Source of the DNA: a phage
Sequence record: PZ229304.1
Length of the DNA: 64,000 bases
Strand: one strand, 5' to 3'
The position numbers were made by a program, and so were the translations under genes. Under the pieces are notes generated by a model. That model worked only from the letters and a program-made list of their open reading frames with translations. It was not told the DNA's origin and made no database searches. Positions 2,183 to 41,530 of the stretch are shown one piece after another. Position 1 is the stretch's first letter; every line of letters starts with the position of its first letter.

Positions 2183-3751
2183 GTGTCTACAGGTAAGCGT
2201 AAGTACACTAAAAGATCGGATTACTGGAACAAAGGCTCAACTGAAAAAGCTGCACTGTCTCCAACACAAAGTGCAACTAAAGAGAAGAACTTGGTACTTT
2301 CACCAGAAATAGGTACTATTGGTCTTAATTCGATTAAAGCCTTTACGAACTTCATGCAACCGTATGAAACTCGCTTCCCAGAAAACATCCGAACATACAA
2401 AGAAATGGGTGAAGACCCTGACGTAGCTACTGCTCTTGATGCTACGTACATCTTTGTAGATAGAGCATTCTTTGATTTTAAAATAAAATACAATGTTAGT
2501 TCAGCTAAGTCAAGACGTGCTGCAAAGTTTGTAGACTACACACTTCGCAACATGAATGCACCACTAAGACAGTATGTACGCTCCTTGCTAACATATAAGC
2601 AATTTGGGTTTGCATTTGCAGAGAAGGTGTATGAACTTGATGAAGATCCAAAAAGCCCGTATTTTGGTTATTACCGTCTTGTTAAATTGGCGTTTAGACC
2701 CCAGGATACAATTGATTTGGCACAACCTTTCACTTATTCTGATGACGGTCGCACTATTCTTACGGTAAACCAAAACATTACTAATGGAATGGTAAGCCCT
2801 GGTACTAACGCAAATCTAATAGGAAGAAAAGAAATTCCTATGGAGAAAGTTATTTACGTAGGGAGCAACATTACAGAGAATAATCCATTAGGTGTAAGTC
2901 CACTTCTTGCAGTATATAGAAGTTGGCGTGAAAAATCTCTGATTCAAGAATACGAAGTTGTTGGTGTTTCGAAAGACTTAGGCGGTATGCCAGTGTTGAT
3001 GGTTCCAAGTGATATTCTCAACAGGGCATCACTAAACCCAAGCGGGGATGAAGCACAATCTTTACGTGTTCTACAAGCAAATATCGCTAACTTACACGCA
3101 GGTGAACAATCTTATATGGTGTTACCTTCTGATGTTTACGAAGGTACTGTTATGCGCCAATATGATCTTGTATTCCAAGGTGTTGAGGGTAGTGGTAAGC
3201 AATTCGATACACAGGCTCTAATAAAACAACGTAAATTAGATATCTACAACAGATTTGGTGCAGGTGTTCTGATTATGGGTGATGGAGAAGGTGGTAGTTA
3301 TTCTTTGTCAGATAACAAACAAACTCTTCTTTCACATTTTATTGAGCGTGATGTAGATATTATTACAGAAGCACTAAATACTCAAGTAATTCCCCAACTT
3401 CTACGTTTGAATGGTATTTTCTTATCTCAAGAAGATATGCCTAAATTTGTTAGTGATGATATCGGTGATCCTGATATTGAAGTTAATGCTAAGGCAATCC
3501 AACAAATCGTAGCTGCTGGTGCAATACCATTAACGCCAGAAGTAATTAATGAATTCTTCGAACGTTTAGGTTTCAATTATAGAATACCTGATGATATTGT
3601 TGCTGATCCAGATAAGTTCCAAGAATTCCTTGAGACTTTTATGCCAGATAAGACTTCAAGATCTGGTGATGGTTTAGCGGCTGGTGCTGGTAATGGAACG
3701 TCAACATCTCCTGCTGCATTAGATACATCGGCAGCAAATTTGGCAAATTAA
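2183..3751 (+). CDS. portal protein
   Basis: 522-aa ORF directly after terminase; GTG start with GGAGG 7 nt upstream; size and position typical of portal. Confidence 0.55.
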   Translation: MSTGKRKYTKRSDYWNKGSTEKAALSPTQSATKEKNLVLSPEIGTIGLNSIKAFTNFMQPYETRFPENIRTYKEMGEDPDVATALDATYIFVDRAFFDFKIKYNVSSAKSRRAAKFVDYTLRNMNAPLRQYVRSLLTYKQFGFAFAEKVYELDEDPKSPYFGYYRLVKLAFRPQDTIDLAQPFTYSDDGRTILTVNQNITNGMVSPGTNANLIGRKEIPMEKVIYVGSNITENNPLGVSPLLAVYRSWREKSLIQEYEVVGVSKDLGGMPVLMVPSDILNRASLNPSGDEAQSLRVLQANIANLHAGEQSYMVLPSDVYEGTVMRQYDLVFQGVEGSGKQFDTQALIKQRKLDIYNRFGAGVLIMGDGEGGSYSLSDNKQTLLSHFIERDVDIITEALNTQVIPQLLRLNGIFLSQEDMPKFVSDDIGDPDIEVNAKAIQQIVAAGAIPLTPEVINEFFERLGFNYRIPDDIVADPDKFQEFLETFMPDKTSRSGDGLAAGAGNGTSTSPAALDTSAANLAN

Positions 3752-37745: not shown

Positions 37746-38177
37746 TTAATCAGTGAAAATTACGCTTACATCTTCTTTAGAAAAGAGTTTATGATCTTCA
37801 CCTTTTGTCTCAAGAGTTTCATACAGGTTAAGAAGTTCTGAAACATCTTTCTCTACCAGTTTCTTCAATGTTGCAATTTTCTGTTTGCGATTCTTAATAC
37901 GTTCAGCTACAACCTTACGTTGGTATCCAGCAGTACGATAACCTGAGAAAGTTACACCAGTGAGACTTGCAGTTACAGGATCGTAATGACGTTCAATCTG
38001 AAATTTATTAAAAGGTACAGCGTCATCACGAATAATCTTCCCGCCATTACTTACTTGACGAAGACCAGTAACTTGTTCTAGTCGTGCCATAGAAATCTTT
38101 GGAGACAGACCAGAGTCCAAGTTCATACCATTGTTAATCAGTGCTTTCAGGGTGATTTTGCTGTTCAGTGTACTCAT
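37746..38177 (-). CDS. hypothetical protein
   Basis: 143-aa ORF; an internal Met at 38126 would avoid overlap with the methyltransferase gene. Confidence 0.3.
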   Translation of the reverse strand: MSTLNSKITLKALINNGMNLDSGLSPKISMARLEQVTGLRQVSNGGKIIRDDAVPFNKFQIERHYDPVTASLTGVTFSGYRTAGYQRKVVAERIKNRKQKIATLKKLVEKDVSELLNLYETLETKGEDHKLFSKEDVSVIFTD

Positions 38178-38865
38178 TTAGTCGTTCCTCCGCTTGCTTA
38201 AAAATATTTACATCGGCTTCACAGCCTAAGTATTCTCTACCTGTTAAAAGTGCCGCAACTTGTGTTGTTGCACTTCCAGAGAAGAAGTCTAAGACTACAT
38301 CTCCTTCGTTGGTGTGTATATTAATAAGGTCACAAAACAAAGTCAAGTGTTTTTGTGTTGGATGAAAACGATCTGCTCCTTGATAGATAGGATACTCAAA
38401 CACACCCTTATGGTAGGAAGCATTGAAGGTTGGCTTAGAACCTTTAACACAAACAATAGCCATTTCTTTAGCGTTACTAAGGTAGTTAACACCACTGTTG
38501 ATGGGTACAGGGTTTGTTTTAATCCATTCGATAGTACGGAACATACGAAAACCAAGCGGTTCAAGGATTTCACGTAGCTCCTGGATCTTCCAGATATCAT
38601 ACCAAACTATGCAAGTACCACCTTTTCTAAGCACCCTGTAGGCTTCTTTGAATACTTCTTTAAAGTAAGGAATATCTACAACATCCCAATCACCAAAGTT
38701 GTAAGATACACGGAATCTATCCGTATCTTTTCCAGTAGGCTCTCCAGACTGAAAATTTGTGTCACGAGAAATAGCATATGGTGGGTCAGTAAGAATCAAA
38801 TCTACACTATTGCTTTCGAGGGTTTGCAAGTAGTTTAATGCGGTGTTGTTTACAAATTCGCTCAT
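38134..38865 (-). CDS. DNA methyltransferase (beta-class, probably N6-adenine)
   Basis: DLILTDPPYA (motif IV) precedes VLDFFSGSATT (SAM-binding motif I); 243 aa; no adjacent restriction endonuclease. Confidence 0.7.
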   Translation of the reverse strand: MSEFVNNTALNYLQTLESNSVDLILTDPPYAISRDTNFQSGEPTGKDTDRFRVSYNFGDWDVVDIPYFKEVFKEAYRVLRKGGTCIVWYDIWKIQELREILEPLGFRMFRTIEWIKTNPVPINSGVNYLSNAKEMAIVCVKGSKPTFNASYHKGVFEYPIYQGADRFHPTQKHLTLFCDLINIHTNEGDVVLDFFSGSATTQVAALLTGREYLGCEADVNIFKQAEERLNEYTEQQNHPESTD

Positions 38866-38883
38866 TATATCTCCTTCAAAGAA

Positions 38884-38902
38884 AAGGAGCCGTTAGGCTC
38901 CT
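38884..38902 (-). terminator. terminator hairpin downstream of SSB-like gene
   Basis: AAGGAGCC-GTTA-GGCTCCTT, near-identical to the hairpin at 37716; A-run on plus strand gives a U-tract for the minus transcript. Confidence 0.5.
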
Positions 38903-38925
38903 TATATTCACACAATATTTAACTA

Positions 38926-39873
38926 TTAGAAACAGTGCAGGAAGTTTCGACCATACTGCAAACCAATAGGAGCAAATGGGATATCATCATCGAAATCTTG
39001 AACAACAGGTTCTGGTTCTTTCGGTGCTGGCTCTTTCTTCTCTACTTTTTTAGTTTCTTTCTTAACTTCTTGTACTGGGGCAGACATTCCACGGATAGCA
39101 GCAGCTACTTTATCAGACAAAGCAAGAACTTCACGAGCAGCTTCAATAATCTCTTCTGCCGTTACAGTCTTACCTGTATGATCACGACAAGCGTTAAGAA
39201 TTGCGTGTCCAACTGAAGCACCAAGATCATAGTCAGTCACATCAACGCCACGATCTTTAGCAATTTCTGCTTTCAGAGTAACAGTTGCAGATTGTACCAC
39301 ACCAGCCAAGTCGAAAGCATCGCCTTTCACACCAGCACGTAGAAGCTCCAGAGCGCCGTTTACAGCGTGTCCTGTTTCAATCCCTACGGTATCACGTTTT
39401 TTGTAGTTAGGCTTGCTACCTTCGTTATTAGATGGCTTATTTCCACCTTTTGAAGAAGATTGTGCTTGCTGAACACCTTCTGTTGAAAGAATAGTGATTT
39501 TACCTTTAGAGGAATTGTAGTATGTTTTGCCATTCCATTCAGAAGGTTTAACATCCATAGTTAGTTCTACACCTTTTTCGATAGTAACCCACTTGTCACC
39601 ATCTTTAACTTGCAGGTTTTCATGTTCTGGATGCAGTTTAACTTCACCTAGGCTAACCCAAACACCTTTATCATCAGCACCAGCACCTTTCTCTTTAATA
39701 AGCAGAGATGCTTTGTGAGTTGATTCAATTTTCTTATCTGGCTGACCTGCAACCTTAATATAAGAGACTTTCATTTCATCAAACTTATCTAGTTTGACAT
39801 ATTCAACGATACCTTCAGCCCAGAATGCTTCTTTTTTAGTACGACGGTCGATTTCAGAATTAATTACTGGCAT
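38926..39873 (-). CDS. ssDNA-binding protein-like, carrying an SSB-type acidic DFDDDIPF motif
   Basis: 315 aa; low-complexity Gly/Ser/Asn/Lys linker; Lys/Glu/Pro-rich segment followed by DFDDDIPF (identical to the E. coli SSB C-terminal tip) 15 residues before the C-terminus. Confidence 0.45.
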   Translation of the reverse strand: MPVINSEIDRRTKKEAFWAEGIVEYVKLDKFDEMKVSYIKVAGQPDKKIESTHKASLLIKEKGAGADDKGVWVSLGEVKLHPEHENLQVKDGDKWVTIEKGVELTMDVKPSEWNGKTYYNSSKGKITILSTEGVQQAQSSSKGGNKPSNNEGSKPNYKKRDTVGIETGHAVNGALELLRAGVKGDAFDLAGVVQSATVTLKAEIAKDRGVDVTDYDLGASVGHAILNACRDHTGKTVTAEEIIEAAREVLALSDKVAAAIRGMSAPVQEVKKETKKVEKKEPAPKEPEPVVQDFDDDIPFAPIGLQYGRNFLHCF

Positions 39874-39889
39874 AAATTCTCCTCTATAA

Positions 39890-40288
39890 TTACATTACTT
39901 TAACACAAAACTCTCGTAAAAGAGTAGCGTCAGTTTCTTCCAACAGGTATTTACCAAGACCAATACCAAATCCTATTTCACCACTTTCAAAATGGAGAAT
40001 TTGTATCTTTTCTCCACCAAGGTTGATTACTTTTGCTTTTCCAGGATTATCCAAAACATCTCGTATTGTATCCTGTAGTAGCATTAGTTCACGTTTTGTG
40101 ATAGTGGTTTCAGATATCTCTTTGTTTTCTACTCTCACTGTTAAACGATTGTATCCACCAAAGAGACATAGTATTTGAATAAAAAAGGTATTATCTTGAG
40201 GTTCAACATCTTTTTTAGTTAGCTCAAGACGATTAGTTTCTCTACTGTAGAACGTCTCGACTAAGATTTTAGAACGATTATCTGTCAT
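39890..40288 (-). CDS. hypothetical protein
   Basis: 132-aa ORF; no motif. Confidence 0.3.
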   Translation of the reverse strand: MTDNRSKILVETFYSRETNRLELTKKDVEPQDNTFFIQILCLFGGYNRLTVRVENKEISETTITKRELMLLQDTIRDVLDNPGKAKVINLGGEKIQILHFESGEIGFGIGLGKYLLEETDATLLREFCVKVM

Positions 40289-40331
40289 TCAAGTCCTCAT
40301 AATAACACATAATTATAATGTTTGTCAACAC

Positions 40332-40946
40332 TTAAATCTTAAATTCTTCGTTGTTAAATGAATCCAGTGTACGTACTTCTGGTTCTTTGGGAATGAAAAC
40401 GTCTTTTACAAAGCGGAACATAGGGAAACGTTCTGCCATTTTACGGACGTGTGCTTCTTTACCTGTGTATCGGTGATTAATAGTACAAATATTAGTTTTC
40501 AGTGCAAATTCAAAATCTGGATGATATACATAATTTTGACCATCCCAGTAACACAAGCAAATAGCTACATCAAAGTTCCATACGATTTCACTGCGTACAC
40601 CTTCTTCCATGATCATAAAGTTAAACTTAAGATCTTTATAGTATGCTTCAAATACCCATTTCAAATGTGGTAGTTCGGCATAAGTGTGTTCTGTTTGCTT
40701 AGTAAGTTGTTTAACATTACGTGCACCAACACCCAACATCAAAAACTTCTCTACTAGCACGAGTGTATTGTGGTTAGGCATACGCAAGTAAATGTCAATG
40801 TCTTGTGCAGGTTTCTCTAATCGCCAATCACGTACAGCGCCGCCAGCTACAATTGCAAACGGATCTACCAGTTGGCACATACGTAATACTTCTAAAGCTC
40901 GTACTTTTTGATCTTCAATATTCATATTTTCTCCTATCGTGTCCAC
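40332..40946 (-). CDS. minimal Pol-beta-superfamily nucleotidyltransferase (CCA-adding / poly(A) polymerase head-domain-like)
   Basis: 204 aa; IVAGGAVRDWRLEKPAQDIDIY matches the GGAVRD...DxD signature of the CCA/poly(A) polymerase head domain. Confidence 0.45.
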   Translation of the reverse strand: MDTIGENMNIEDQKVRALEVLRMCQLVDPFAIVAGGAVRDWRLEKPAQDIDIYLRMPNHNTLVLVEKFLMLGVGARNVKQLTKQTEHTYAELPHLKWVFEAYYKDLKFNFMIMEEGVRSEIVWNFDVAICLCYWDGQNYVYHPDFEFALKTNICTINHRYTGKEAHVRKMAERFPMFRFVKDVFIPKEPEVRTLDSFNNEEFKI

Positions 40947-41530
40947 TCTTTGTGTTGTTCTACATGCTCAAGCATTTCATTATATAGTGCTTTAAGATGT
41001 GGAACAACTCTTTCATCTTCAGTCTCAAAGAATTTTGTAAGCTGTTCTGCCTTAGCCTTCAACCAACAAAGATGCGCTTCAATTTCAGTATTAAAACGTC
41101 CCAGTGTTATAACACGTCCATCACGTTGAATATGGGCTTTATACTTTTTACGATCTTTTTCGTAACTACATCCTACCATAGTCCCATGAGATCTTTTACT
41201 TACTCTATAAGCTAAGAACTTGTTAAGATCTCCTGTTACTAAAAGACAGGTATCGGGAGAGTAAACTCTCCCTCCTATAATATCTTTATCAAGTTCTAAG
41301 TTTTCCCAGTTATCCCAAGTTTGCAACCAAGAGTAGAAATTGGAGAACAGTTTCCATTCTTCACAAACCGTCACCCCATTATAACAAGGATCACGTTCTT
41401 GTTGACAAGGGGAGTAACACCTCCCCAACATAGCCATCCATTTCATATAATGCGGCGTTAGTTTCTTACTACCAGGTAGCGTACTCTCGCCTTCCAAATC
41501 ATTAATACCTTCACCATATACGGTAAGCAT
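40934..41530 (-). CDS. AP2-domain protein, putative homing-endonuclease-like DNA-binding protein
   Basis: 198 aa; C-terminal YKAHIQRDGRVITLGRFNTEIEAHLCW fits the AP2 fold signature; sits next to the DNA polymerase gene; no catalytic HNH/GIY-YIG motif seen. Confidence 0.4.
   Translation of the reverse strand: MLTVYGEGINDLEGESTLPGSKKLTPHYMKWMAMLGRCYSPCQQERDPCYNGVTVCEEWKLFSNFYSWLQTWDNWENLELDKDIIGGRVYSPDTCLLVTGDLNKFLAYRVSKRSHGTMVGCSYEKDRKKYKAHIQRDGRVITLGRFNTEIEAHLCWLKAKAEQLTKFFETEDERVVPHLKALYNEMLEHVEQHKEWTR

What the first reader, a model, noticed from the sequence alone, without database searches (positions are those of the whole stretch)
38926..39873. SSB-like protein carrying an internal copy of the host SSB tip motif
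The protein ends ...VVQDFDDDIPFAPIGLQYGRNFLHCF. DFDDDIPF is the exact E. coli SSB C-terminal tip that recruits host replication and repair proteins, but here it is followed by 15 more residues. The phage protein may compete for or recruit the host SSB interactome, or the extension may mask the tip.
Basis: seen in the sequence. Interest (0 to 1): 0.45.

Follow-up and report, generated by a model that had tools for sequence, protein, structure and literature searches.

The report
Phage SSB with a capped tip
A phage DNA-replication protein carries the exact docking peptide that E. coli SSB uses to recruit repair enzymes, followed by a conserved 15-residue cap; the same cap occurs on unrelated phage and prophage SSBs, and mobile nuclease genes repeatedly sit at this gene end.

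Summary
ORF 38926..39873 (-) encodes a 315-aa protein ending ...DFDDDIPF-APIGLQYGRNFLHCF*. It is not a sequencing error: 56 phi92-like genomes share it, and rV5, SSE121 and an Acinetobacter phage carry homologous caps.

The protein is SSB-like. It has a predicted OB-fold, a four-helix domain and a disordered acidic tail, and it lies in the replication module.

Most relatives (102 of 141 diverse representatives) stop exactly at DDDIPF; only 8 carry a long cap.

The cap AP[IV][GT]L[QP][YF]+7-8 residues is a module shared across SSB types:
- It also sits on canonical SSBs of marine phages and lambdoid coliphages such as HK75 and CP-1639.
- The HK75-type gene end matches in 406 of 5426 complete E. 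coli genomes.
- It is under purifying selection in the SSB reading frame.

A family of HNH endonuclease genes lives at the 3' end of many unrelated ssb genes:
- In this protein's own family, cap and HNH are present or absent together (rV5 vs naam, Mt1B1_P17 vs ukendt).
- In Sf6 the HNH sits exactly between tip and cap.
- The window keeps the cap but has no HNH.

What the cap does is inferred, not shown. It removes the free carboxylate that host partners grip, so it probably masks or retunes tip binding. I found no description of it in the literature library searched.

The parts
38926..39873 (-). SSB-like gene, 315 aa (PHROG 4477)
   Evidence: ORF list and sequence. phrog_4477 E=3.9e-101, and the profile ends at residue 300. 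99% identical to phi92-like phages.
39484..39873 (-). Residues 1-130: predicted OB-fold domain
39394..39483 (-). Residues 131-160: disordered linker
   Evidence: pLDDT below 50 for residues 137-156.
39091..39393 (-). Residues 161-261: four-helix domain with the conserved G-x-E-T-G-H-A and G-A-S-V-G-H-A-x-L-N-A-C motifs
   Evidence: pLDDT 88-96; helices 163-179, 186-208, 215-230 and 239-261. Conserved columns G164, G168, H169, G218 and G222. Function unknown.
38998..39090 (-). Residues 262-292: Lys/Glu/Pro-rich disordered tail
   Evidence: pLDDT 43-53. Length and sequence vary among homologues.
38974..38997 (-). Residues 293-300: DFDDDIPF, identical to the E. coli SSB C-terminal tip
   Evidence: Sequence. 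Matches the C-termini of PDB SSB chains. P299 and F300 are invariant in the family.
38929..38973 (-). Residues 301-315: cap APIGLQYGRNFLHCF
   Evidence: Sequence. Homologous caps occur on other members of this family and on canonical SSBs. Purifying selection acts in this reading frame.
38919..38954 (-). Alternative-frame ATG inside the Q-Y-G codons, opening only 11 codons (MVETSCTVSNS*). At this position the HNH endonuclease ORF starts in relatives.
   Evidence: the same ATG opens a 164-aa ORF in Mt1B1_P17, 207 aa in rV5, 171 aa in L034 and 173 aa in L044. The window has no HNH gene. Whether the short ORF is a remnant cannot be decided, because cap conservation forces similarity in the other frame.
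38878..38903 (-). Intrinsic terminator-like hairpin (AAGGAGCC-TAAC-GGCTCCTT) plus T tract, 22 nt after the stop
   Evidence: A similar hairpin follows the gene in ukendt and follows the HNH gene in Mt1B1_P17.
39890..40288 (-). 132-aa gene (phrog_16560), directly upstream of the SSB-like gene here and in every relative checked, probably in the same transcription unit
   Evidence: Same position in L124, L126, L129, L130 and L131. Function unknown.
40299..40328 (-). Sigma-70-like promoter match (TTGACA-18-TATTAT, 11 of 12 positions, TG extension) upstream of the two-gene unit
   Evidence: This is a consensus match only.

Best explanation
**What it is.** The gene encodes the replication-module SSB-like protein of a phi92-like phage. 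The predicted layout is an OB-fold domain, a four-helix domain and a disordered acidic tail. The tail carries the E. coli-type SSB tip DFDDDIPF.

**The cap.** Unlike most of its relatives, this protein does not stop at the tip. It carries a 15-residue cap, APIGLQYGRNFLHCF.
- The cap is a conserved module: AP[IV][GT]L[QPM][YF], then 7-8 residues ending in a hydrophobic residue.
- It occurs on at least three unrelated SSB cores.
- It is kept by purifying selection acting on the SSB reading frame.

**Why it is patchy.** A family of HNH-type homing endonuclease genes occupies the 3' end of ssb genes.
- The cassettes start right after the Phe codon, or overlap the end of the cap, with the nuclease start codon inside the Q-Y-G/A codons.
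- In this protein's own family, cap and nuclease are gained or lost as one unit, with sequence differences clustered in the tip codons.
The nuclease gene is now absent (shown).

[quoted passage not shown] Burying Phe300 inside the chain should weaken or block docking of host SSB-interacting proteins. The cap also presents a new hydrophobic C-terminus that may serve another partner.
For: **Identity and context**
- Searches give the ORF, its phi92-like origin and the replication-module neighbours.
- Fold.
- Default state of the family is a free tip. About 78 of 100 close homologues end at the tip, as do 102 of 141 representatives clustered at 50% identity. The PHROG profile ends at residue 300.

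**The cap on other SSB cores**
- 32 IMG/VR loci and 8 bacterial genomes carry it.
- One of these SSBs matches the full NCBIfam SSB profile 1-177 of 177, with the cap lying beyond the profile.
- Lambdoid phages HK75 and CP-1639 carry it.
- The HK75-type gene end matches in 406 of 5426 complete E. coli genomes, 230 of them over at least 80% of the query.

**Selection** (Nei-Gojobori counts)
- SSB frame: pN/pS is 0.02-0.05/0.80 for cap codons 1-7, and 0.39-0.45/0.80 for the remainder.
- The other two frames show no excess of synonymous change (pN 0.48-0.54 vs pS 0.31-0.55).
- Window vs Mt1B1_P17: six differences in the cap, all synonymous.

**The endonuclease family**
- It has 180 relatives in IMG/VR.
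- In the 76 loci that could be evaluated, the ORF just upstream ends at or near a -PF tip. 25 end exactly at PF, 41 have one extra residue and 10 have longer extensions.
- These upstream ORFs fall into 16 unrelated sequence clusters and several SSB PHROGs.
- The nuclease start codon lies inside the cap codons.

**Paired natural comparisons**
- rV5 (cap + HNH) vs naam (neither): 98% identity across the gene, but 18 of 24 in the tip codons.
- Mt1B1_P17 vs ukendt show the same pattern.
- In Sf6 the HNH lies exactly between tip and cap.

**Carboxylate requirement**: PMC10164576.
Against: - No experiment or complex model here shows that the cap blocks or changes binding. AlphaFold2 leaves the cap disordered (pLDDT about 55).
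- The tip stays conserved in capped proteins. That could mean it still works internally, or that the cap is removed after translation.
- Sf6 (free tip) and HK75 (capped) are both viable phages with nearly the same SSB, so the cap is not essential.
- The window has no HNH gene. Its 11-codon alternative-frame ORF cannot be told apart from a by-product of cap conservation, so past presence of the cassette in this lineage is inferred from relatives.
- Whether the cap began as an SSB feature or as the left end of a cassette is unresolved. Caps of the APIGLQYP... type have no HNH and no embedded ATG.
Confidence: 0.6

Rival explanations
1. The cap is a passenger scar. It would be the read-through left end of a homing-endonuclease cassette, tolerated by the SSB but without a function of its own, and surviving in phi92-like phages only because too little time has passed since the nuclease gene was lost.
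For: - Cap and HNH are gained or lost together in two pairs within this family.
- Other cassette types add just one residue after Phe. Their conserved junction DNA starts right after the Phe codon.
- Free-tip relatives are the majority.
- The ukendt and L129 3' UTRs look like a decayed cap.
Against: - Selection acts on the SSB frame while synonymous sites are saturated.
- The window and SSE121, both without HNH and only 36% identical in the core, differ at 9 cap codons synonymously and at 2 conservatively.
- Caps persist on canonical SSBs with no nuclease gene nearby.
Confidence: 0.15
2. The cap mainly serves the endonuclease gene. It would move the ssb stop codon beyond the nuclease start, so that nuclease translation is coupled to ssb translation. 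It would also alter the Phe-stop junction, so that the carrier genome is immune to cleavage.
For: - The nuclease ATG lies 19 nt into the cap in rV5, Mt1B1_P17, L034, L044 and ABPH49, with no obvious Shine-Dalgarno sequence by eye.
- 51 of 76 nuclease-linked ssb genes carry at least one extra residue after Phe.
- Alleles with and without the nuclease differ at synonymous positions of the I-P-F codons in all three pairs.
Against: - The nuclease frame shows no purifying selection across the overlap (pN 0.50 vs pS 0.55).
- Caps of the APIGLQYP... type lack both the ATG and the nuclease gene.
- The cap persists in 56 phi92-like genomes that have no nuclease gene.
Confidence: 0.12
3. The cap is a degradation or processing signal. 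Its non-polar C-terminus (..LHCF, ..IHAL, ..LMCM, ..YALYA) would mark the SSB for a cytoplasmic protease, or the cap would be clipped off to expose the tip when needed.
For: - Hydrophobic C-terminal residues are conserved across all cap types.
- Some variants end ..YALYA, which recalls the ssrA tag ..YALAA. This resemblance is my own recollection, not a test.
- The tip remains conserved beneath the cap.
Against: No protease site or degron was tested. The most strongly conserved part of the cap is its first half, APIGLQY, not the extreme C-terminus.
Confidence: 0.1
4. The extension is a sequencing or annotation artefact: a frameshift or a missed stop near 38970.
For: Most homologues stop right after DDDIPF.
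Against: - The same 948-nt ORF occurs in 56 independently sequenced genomes.
- Homologous caps occur in distant phages and on other SSB types.
Confidence: 0.01

Closest known systems
E. coli SSB and its C-terminal tip (SSB-Ct, DDDIPF)
   Same: - Predicted OB-fold at the N-terminus, then a disordered linker and an acidic tail.
- Identical DFDDDIPF sequence.
   Different: - No sequence-profile match to the SSB OB domain.
- An extra four-helix domain.
- The tip is internal, so the alpha-carboxylate that partner pockets anchor (PMC10164576) is absent.
PHROG 4477: SSB-like proteins of rV5-, phAPEC8- and phi92-like myoviruses, function unannotated
   Same: Full-length membership (E=3.9e-101) and the same gene neighbourhood.
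   Different: The profile, and most members, end at the tip. This member carries the 15-residue cap.
Capped canonical SSBs of lambdoid and P22-like coliphages (HK75, mEp235, CP-1639) and of marine gammaproteobacterial phages
   Same: Same arrangement, a tip followed by a 14-15 residue cap: AP[IV][GT]L[QP][YF] and then a hydrophobic end.
   Different: - The core is the ordinary bacterial-type SSB, unrelated in sequence to the window protein.
- Cap subtypes differ: ..PALLMCM and ..PRHAIHAI versus ..GRNFLHCF.
Free-standing homing endonucleases of T-even phages, especially SegG beside gene 32 (PMC2988022)
   Same: - A mobile nuclease gene next to the phage SSB gene that targets that gene.
- Co-conversion of flanking sequence.
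- Presence or absence varies among close relatives.
   Different: - The nuclease here is HNH-type, not GIY-YIG.
- The cassette abuts or overlaps the last codons of ssb and changes the protein's C-terminus.
- The family is found beside many unrelated ssb genes.
- Cleavage has not been tested.
Phage SSB tails used for phage partners (HK620 SSB with Sak4, PMC5928155; T7 gp2.5, from my own knowledge)
   Same: An acidic tail ending in an aromatic residue mediates partner binding.
   Different: In those proteins the motif is at the extreme C-terminus. Here it is buried under a cap.

Membership tests
Bacterial-type SSB (PF00436 / TIGR00621) | Sequence match to the SSB OB-domain profile | tested here: not met
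   No Pfam family at E<=0.1. No NCBIfam family at E<=0.01. The PDB profile search matches only the tip.
Bacterial-type SSB (PF00436 / TIGR00621) | OB-fold ssDNA-binding domain | tested here: met
Bacterial-type SSB (PF00436 / TIGR00621) | Disordered linker ending in the acidic tip D-D-D-I-P-F | tested here: met
Bacterial-type SSB (PF00436 / TIGR00621) | Tip at the extreme C-terminus, with a free alpha-carboxylate on the Phe | tested here: not met
   Fifteen residues follow Phe300. The requirement is described in PMC10164576.
Bacterial-type SSB (PF00436 / TIGR00621) | Binds ssDNA; forms a homo-oligomer | not testable with these tools
   Needs biochemistry.
PHROG 4477 | Full-length profile match | tested here: met
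   E=3.9e-101, 339.8 bits, in two matched stretches.
Capped-tip SSBs (group defined in this report) | Tip followed by AP[IV][GT]L[QPM][YF] and then 7-8 residues ending in a hydrophobic residue | tested here: met
   APIGLQY-GRNFLHCF, aligned with 17 other caps.
Capped-tip SSBs (group defined in this report) | Purifying selection on the cap in the SSB reading frame | tested here: met
   Also the six synonymous and no non-synonymous differences against Mt1B1_P17.
ssb-3'-end HNH homing-endonuclease cassette | HNH-type endonuclease ORF directly downstream of, or overlapping, the ssb 3' end | tested here: not met
   In the window only an 11-codon ORF starts at the equivalent ATG. A terminator and a methyltransferase gene follow. 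The feature is present in rV5, Mt1B1_P17, ABPH49, L124 and L126.
ssb-3'-end HNH homing-endonuclease cassette | Presence or absence varies among close relatives, with a co-conversion tract | tested here: met
   Met in relatives, not in the window's own genus. rV5 vs naam: 98% identity across the gene, 18 of 24 in the tip codons. Mt1B1_P17 vs ukendt. Sf6 vs CP-1639 and HK75.
ssb-3'-end HNH homing-endonuclease cassette | Site-specific cleavage of nuclease-free alleles and super-Mendelian inheritance | not testable with these tools
   Needs enzyme assays and phage crosses.

The most novel reading that the evidence does not exclude
The tip-coding end of ssb is one of the most conserved short coding sequences shared by proteobacteria and their phages. 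It may serve as a portable homing site for one family of HNH endonucleases, letting the element jump between unrelated ssb genes. In some lineages the element would carry with it a selected 'tip cap' that rewires which proteins the phage SSB can recruit, for example by shutting out host SSB-interacting enzymes or engaging a new partner. The same nuclease might also recognise the host ssb 3' end.
Probability: 0.3. Interest if true: 0.8.

Novelty: new variant of a known kind. Interest (0 to 1): 0.6.

Why it matters
- **SSB biology.** SSB-Ct binding sites described so far anchor a free terminal Phe. A naturally capped tip that is common in phages, matches in about 7% of complete E. coli genomes and is kept by selection would be one of three things: a natural off-switch for the host SSB interactome, a new docking motif, or evidence that the tip can work internally. 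Each is directly testable with peptides.
- **Mobile elements.** A nuclease family specialised on the last codons of ssb, found next to at least 16 unrelated upstream ORF clusters ending at or near a -PF tip (several in SSB PHROGs), would show how a short, nearly universal coding motif lets a selfish element cross between unrelated genes and reshape a protein's interaction terminus.
- **Annotation.** Capped SSBs are currently annotated simply as 'ssb', with nothing marking the cap.

Tried and rejected
1. **Sequencing frameshift.** Rejected by conservation across genomes.
2. **Pfam and NCBIfam** give nothing for this protein. The PDB sequence search finds only the tip.
3. **First working idea: the nuclease cassette creates the cap.** Revised after finding nuclease-free capped SSBs in HK75, CP-1639 and marine phages, and after seeing the Sf6 arrangement with the nuclease between tip and cap.
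4. **The 11-codon ORF in the window as a nuclease remnant.** Not upheld as evidence. Cap conservation in the SSB frame forces similarity in the other frame, and similarity beyond the stop codon is weak.
5. **Nuclease C-termini carrying cap remnants.** Checked in 80 loci. Only Sf6 shows this.
6. **Clamp-binding (QL[SD]LF-like) or PIP-like motif in the cap.** Compared by eye only. The cap has charged or small residues at the key hydrophobic positions, so I did not pursue it.
7. **Literature.** Searches for APIGLQY, DDIPFAP and PRHAIHAI, and for homing endonucleases at ssb, found nothing on this feature.
8. **Tail-only profile search.** The 45-aa version returned only short fragments. These were still useful for host range.
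9. **BFVD fold search.** Mostly uncharacterised viral proteins, with only weak hits to phage ssDNA-binding families.

Full report
**1. The observation**

The minus-strand ORF 38926..39873 encodes 315 residues ending ...EPEPVVQDFDDDIPFAPIGLQYGRNFLHCF*. DFDDDIPF (residues 293-300, 38974..38997) is identical to the E. coli SSB tip. A profile of the family matches solved SSB chains only over ...PPMDFDDDIPF. It is the only tip-like motif in a long ORF in any frame of the window.

The window comes from a phi92-like phage (Justusliebigvirus). Fifty-six phage records are 95-99% identical across the whole region, with no gap at the 3' end. A sequencing frameshift is therefore excluded.

**2. What the protein is**

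Pfam and NCBIfam find nothing. PHROGs places the protein in phrog_4477, of unknown function, with E=3.9e-101. The profile ends at residue 300, the Phe of the tip.

AlphaFold2, run with a 98-sequence alignment, gives this layout:
- a confident beta domain, residues 1-130;
- a disordered linker, residues 137-156;
- a confident four-helix domain, residues 163-261;
- a disordered tail that includes the tip and the extension (pLDDT 43-55).

The gene lies in a replication module. In order along the minus strand this is a primase-helicase, a family A DNA polymerase, an HNH gene, a nucleotidyltransferase, a conserved 132-aa gene, and then this gene. A promoter-like site and a terminator bracket the last two genes.

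'SSB-like' is thus supported by fold, architecture and context. It is not supported by sequence-family membership, and ssDNA binding is untested.

**3. How relatives end**

- Among 100 close homologues, about 78 stop exactly at DDDIPF and about 22 carry a 14-17 residue extension.
- Among 141 representatives clustered at 50% identity, 102 end at the tip, 8 carry a long extension and 7 carry one to three extra residues.
- P299 and F300 are invariant.
- The extensions are homologous to one another. Examples are APIGLQYGRNFLHCF (window, Mt1B1_P17), APVGLQYGKSRIHAL (rV5), APIGLQYGRNFIHCI (SSE121), APIGLQYARHAIHAI (ABPH49) and APVGLQYARHAISALYA.

I call this extension the cap.

**4. The cap occurs on several SSB types**

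- A degenerate DNA pattern for DDIPFAP[IV]GLQY found 32 loci in IMG/VR and 8 in GTDB species genomes: Vibrio, Pseudoalteromonas, Oceanisphaera, Glaciecola, Providencia and one Parasphingorhabdus bin.
- Most of these are ordinary bacterial-type SSBs, beginning MxxRGVNKVILVGNLG and ending ...DDDIPFAPIGLQYPALLMCM or similar. One matches the NCBIfam SSB profile over positions 1-177 of 177, with the cap lying beyond the profile.
- A tail-profile search also found capped 'single-stranded DNA-binding protein' fragments in E. coli, Salmonella, Klebsiella, Proteus, Providencia and Tatumella.
- Lambdoid and P22-like coliphages HK75 and CP-1639 encode SSBs ending DDDIPFAPVTLPFPRHAIHAI, directly followed by abc2; tblastn matches extend through the cap in mEp235, mEpX2, ECP1 and HZ41 as well.
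- That gene end matches in 406 of 5426 complete E. coli genomes, 230 of them over at least 80% of the query.
- Other cap carriers belong to the short phrog_44 SSB type.

**5. Selection on the cap**

- Synonymous positions in the cap codons are fully scrambled among 40 distinct sequences.
- Nei-Gojobori counts, SSB frame:
  - cap codons 1-7: pN/pS = 0.02-0.05/0.80 (partly constrained by my search pattern);
  - the remaining codons, which the pattern did not constrain: 0.39/0.81 in 22 caps of the ..P.. type, and 0.45/0.80 in 12 caps of the ..G/A.. type.
- The two alternative frames show no excess of synonymous change (pN 0.48-0.54 vs pS 0.31-0.55).
- The window and Mt1B1_P17 proteins are about 61% identical, yet their caps are identical in amino acids with six nucleotide differences, all synonymous.

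The cap peptide is therefore under purifying selection as part of the SSB.

**6. A mobile nuclease at the ssb 3' end**

*Pairs within this protein's family*
- Mt1B1_P17 differs from its close relative ukendt, which ends DDDIPF*, by one block: cap plus a downstream endonuclease gene. PHROGs assigns that gene to phrog_2340. Its sequence carries the motif ..AHHCDYDKP..WLCP.HH..WH.
- rV5 differs from naam in the same way. The genes are about 98% identical, but only 18 of 24 positions match in the tip codons next to the block. That pattern looks like a co-conversion tract.

*Where the nuclease ORF starts*
- In rV5, Mt1B1_P17, ABPH49, L034 and L044 the nuclease ORF starts at an ATG embedded in the Q-Y-G/A codons of the cap, in another frame. 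In L124 and L126 it starts within the last cap codons.

*The family at large*
- The nuclease has 180 relatives in IMG/VR.
- In the 76 best loci that could be evaluated, the ORF immediately upstream ends at or near a -PF tip. Twenty-five end exactly at PF, 41 have one extra residue (32 of them Asn) and 10 have longer extensions.
- With their tails removed, these upstream ORFs fall into 16 unrelated clusters. They include several PHROGs annotated as SSB and one gp2.5-like family.
- Junction DNA shows that the cassettes begin right after the Phe codon.

*Sf6*
- The Sf6 SSB (gene 27) ends ..DDSDIPF*.
- Gene 26 is a nuclease of this family, and its C-terminus is the cap PVTLPFPRHAIHAI.
- The cap-coding DNA is identical to that of HK75 and CP-1639, and abc2 follows.
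- There the element sits exactly at the tip-cap junction of an already capped ssb.

*Reading of this evidence*
- Taken together, this behaves like a free-standing homing endonuclease that uses the tip-coding end of ssb as its site.
- The known precedent is T4 SegG beside gene 32 (PMC2988022).
- Cleavage and homing themselves have not been tested.

**7. The state of the window**

The window has the cap but no nuclease gene. The equivalent ATG (38954) opens only 11 codons. A terminator follows at 38903..38884, and then a DNA methyltransferase gene.

SSE121 and L128 are in the same state. I infer that the cap reached, or was renewed in, this lineage through such a cassette, and that the nuclease gene was later lost. 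The short ORF is not independent evidence for this, because cap conservation forces similarity in the other frame.

Whether caps began as an SSB feature later exploited by the element, or as a cassette end later co-opted, is open. Nuclease-free caps on canonical SSBs and the Sf6 arrangement favour the first. The linked gain and loss in this family shows that the element moves caps around.

**8. Mechanism**

*Shown*
- The cap exists.
- It is modular and under selection.
- In this family and in Sf6 it lies beside or overlaps the nuclease cassette.

*Established knowledge*
- SSB-Ct binding sites have a hydrophobic pocket for the terminal Phe.
- They also have a basic lip that anchors its alpha-carboxyl group.
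- Removing the terminal Phe abolishes binding (PMC10164576).

*Inferred*
- With 15 residues after Phe300, canonical docking by host SSB-interacting proteins should be weakened or lost.
- The conserved APIGLQY and the hydrophobic end may form a new docking element.
- Phage SSB tails are known to recruit phage partners. In HK620 the SSB tail recruits Sak4 (PMC5928155).

*Against a simple mask*
- The tip remains conserved under the cap.
- Sf6 and HK75 show that the cap is dispensable.

Rival readings are a passenger scar, a device serving the nuclease (translational coupling or cleavage immunity), and a degron or processing signal. The rival-explanations section gives my confidence in each.

**9. 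Novelty and verdict**

I found no paper in the searchable library that mentions the cap sequences or a homing endonuclease specialised on ssb ends. The GenBank note on Sf6 gene 26 records only an unexplained 14-residue identity to SSB.

It combines a new variant of a known protein type, an SSB with a capped tip, with a known kind of mobile element in a new and unusually portable location. The function of the cap remains untested.

Noticed in passing
window 40934..41530 (-): A 198-aa HNH endonuclease gene (phrog_953) lies between the DNA polymerase gene and the nucleotidyltransferase gene, overlapping the latter's start by 13 nt. Relatives L126, L130 and L131 have no such gene there. It is probably a second free-standing homing endonuclease in the same replication module.
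   Followed up: partly
L044-L123 (IMG/VR loci carrying relatives of the HNH gene): In 41 of 76 loci the SSB tip is followed by exactly one extra residue, Asn in 32 of them. The junction DNA is conserved (TTY AAT TAG AAY GGG TCT ATA ATG G.., or AAY TAA GYC CCT TTT AA). The cassette's left end therefore starts right after the Phe codon and supplies the 'N-stop'. A one-residue cap on the tip appears to be widely tolerated.
   Followed up: partly
L134 (Shigella phage Sf6) 2005..2484: Sf6 gene 26 is an HNH endonuclease whose last 14 residues (PVTLPFPRHAIHAI) are the SSB cap of HK75 and CP-1639, encoded by identical DNA. The nuclease gene sits exactly between the tip and the cap of ssb. The GenBank note mentions only a 14-residue identity to SSB.
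   Followed up: yes
L002 (ukendt) about 2380..2402, and L129 about 2398..2420: After the stop that follows DDDIPF, the 3' UTR (TGA TCT TAT TGA TTT ATA A) resembles the cap codons GCT CCT ATT GGT TTG CAG TA shifted by one base, with 12 of 18 positions identical. This may be a decayed cap, which would imply the cap was lost by creation of a stop codon. The statistical support is weak.
   Followed up: partly
window 39890..40288 (-): A 132-aa gene (phrog_16560, unknown function) lies directly upstream of the SSB-like gene here and in every relative examined. It shares a promoter-like site (40328..40299) and a terminator (38903..38884) with the SSB-like gene. It could be a functional partner of that protein.
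   Followed up: no
window 37746..38865 (-): A DNA methyltransferase gene (N6_N4_Mtase, 38134..38865) and a 143-aa gene (phrog_20244) follow the SSB-like gene in the window. They are absent at that position in relatives L129-L131, where a convergent tail-fibre-like gene follows directly. L124 has a homologue of the 143-aa gene after its HNH gene.
   Followed up: no
P0277 (108 aa) and P0100 (179 aa), from the protein searches: Two short proteins from other contigs end with caps identical or nearly identical to the window's: ...DEDIPFAPIGLQYGRNFLHCF and ...DDDIPFAPIGLQYGRNLLHVI. Outside the tail they show no detected match to the window protein, which is further evidence that tip and cap move as a module.
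   Followed up: no
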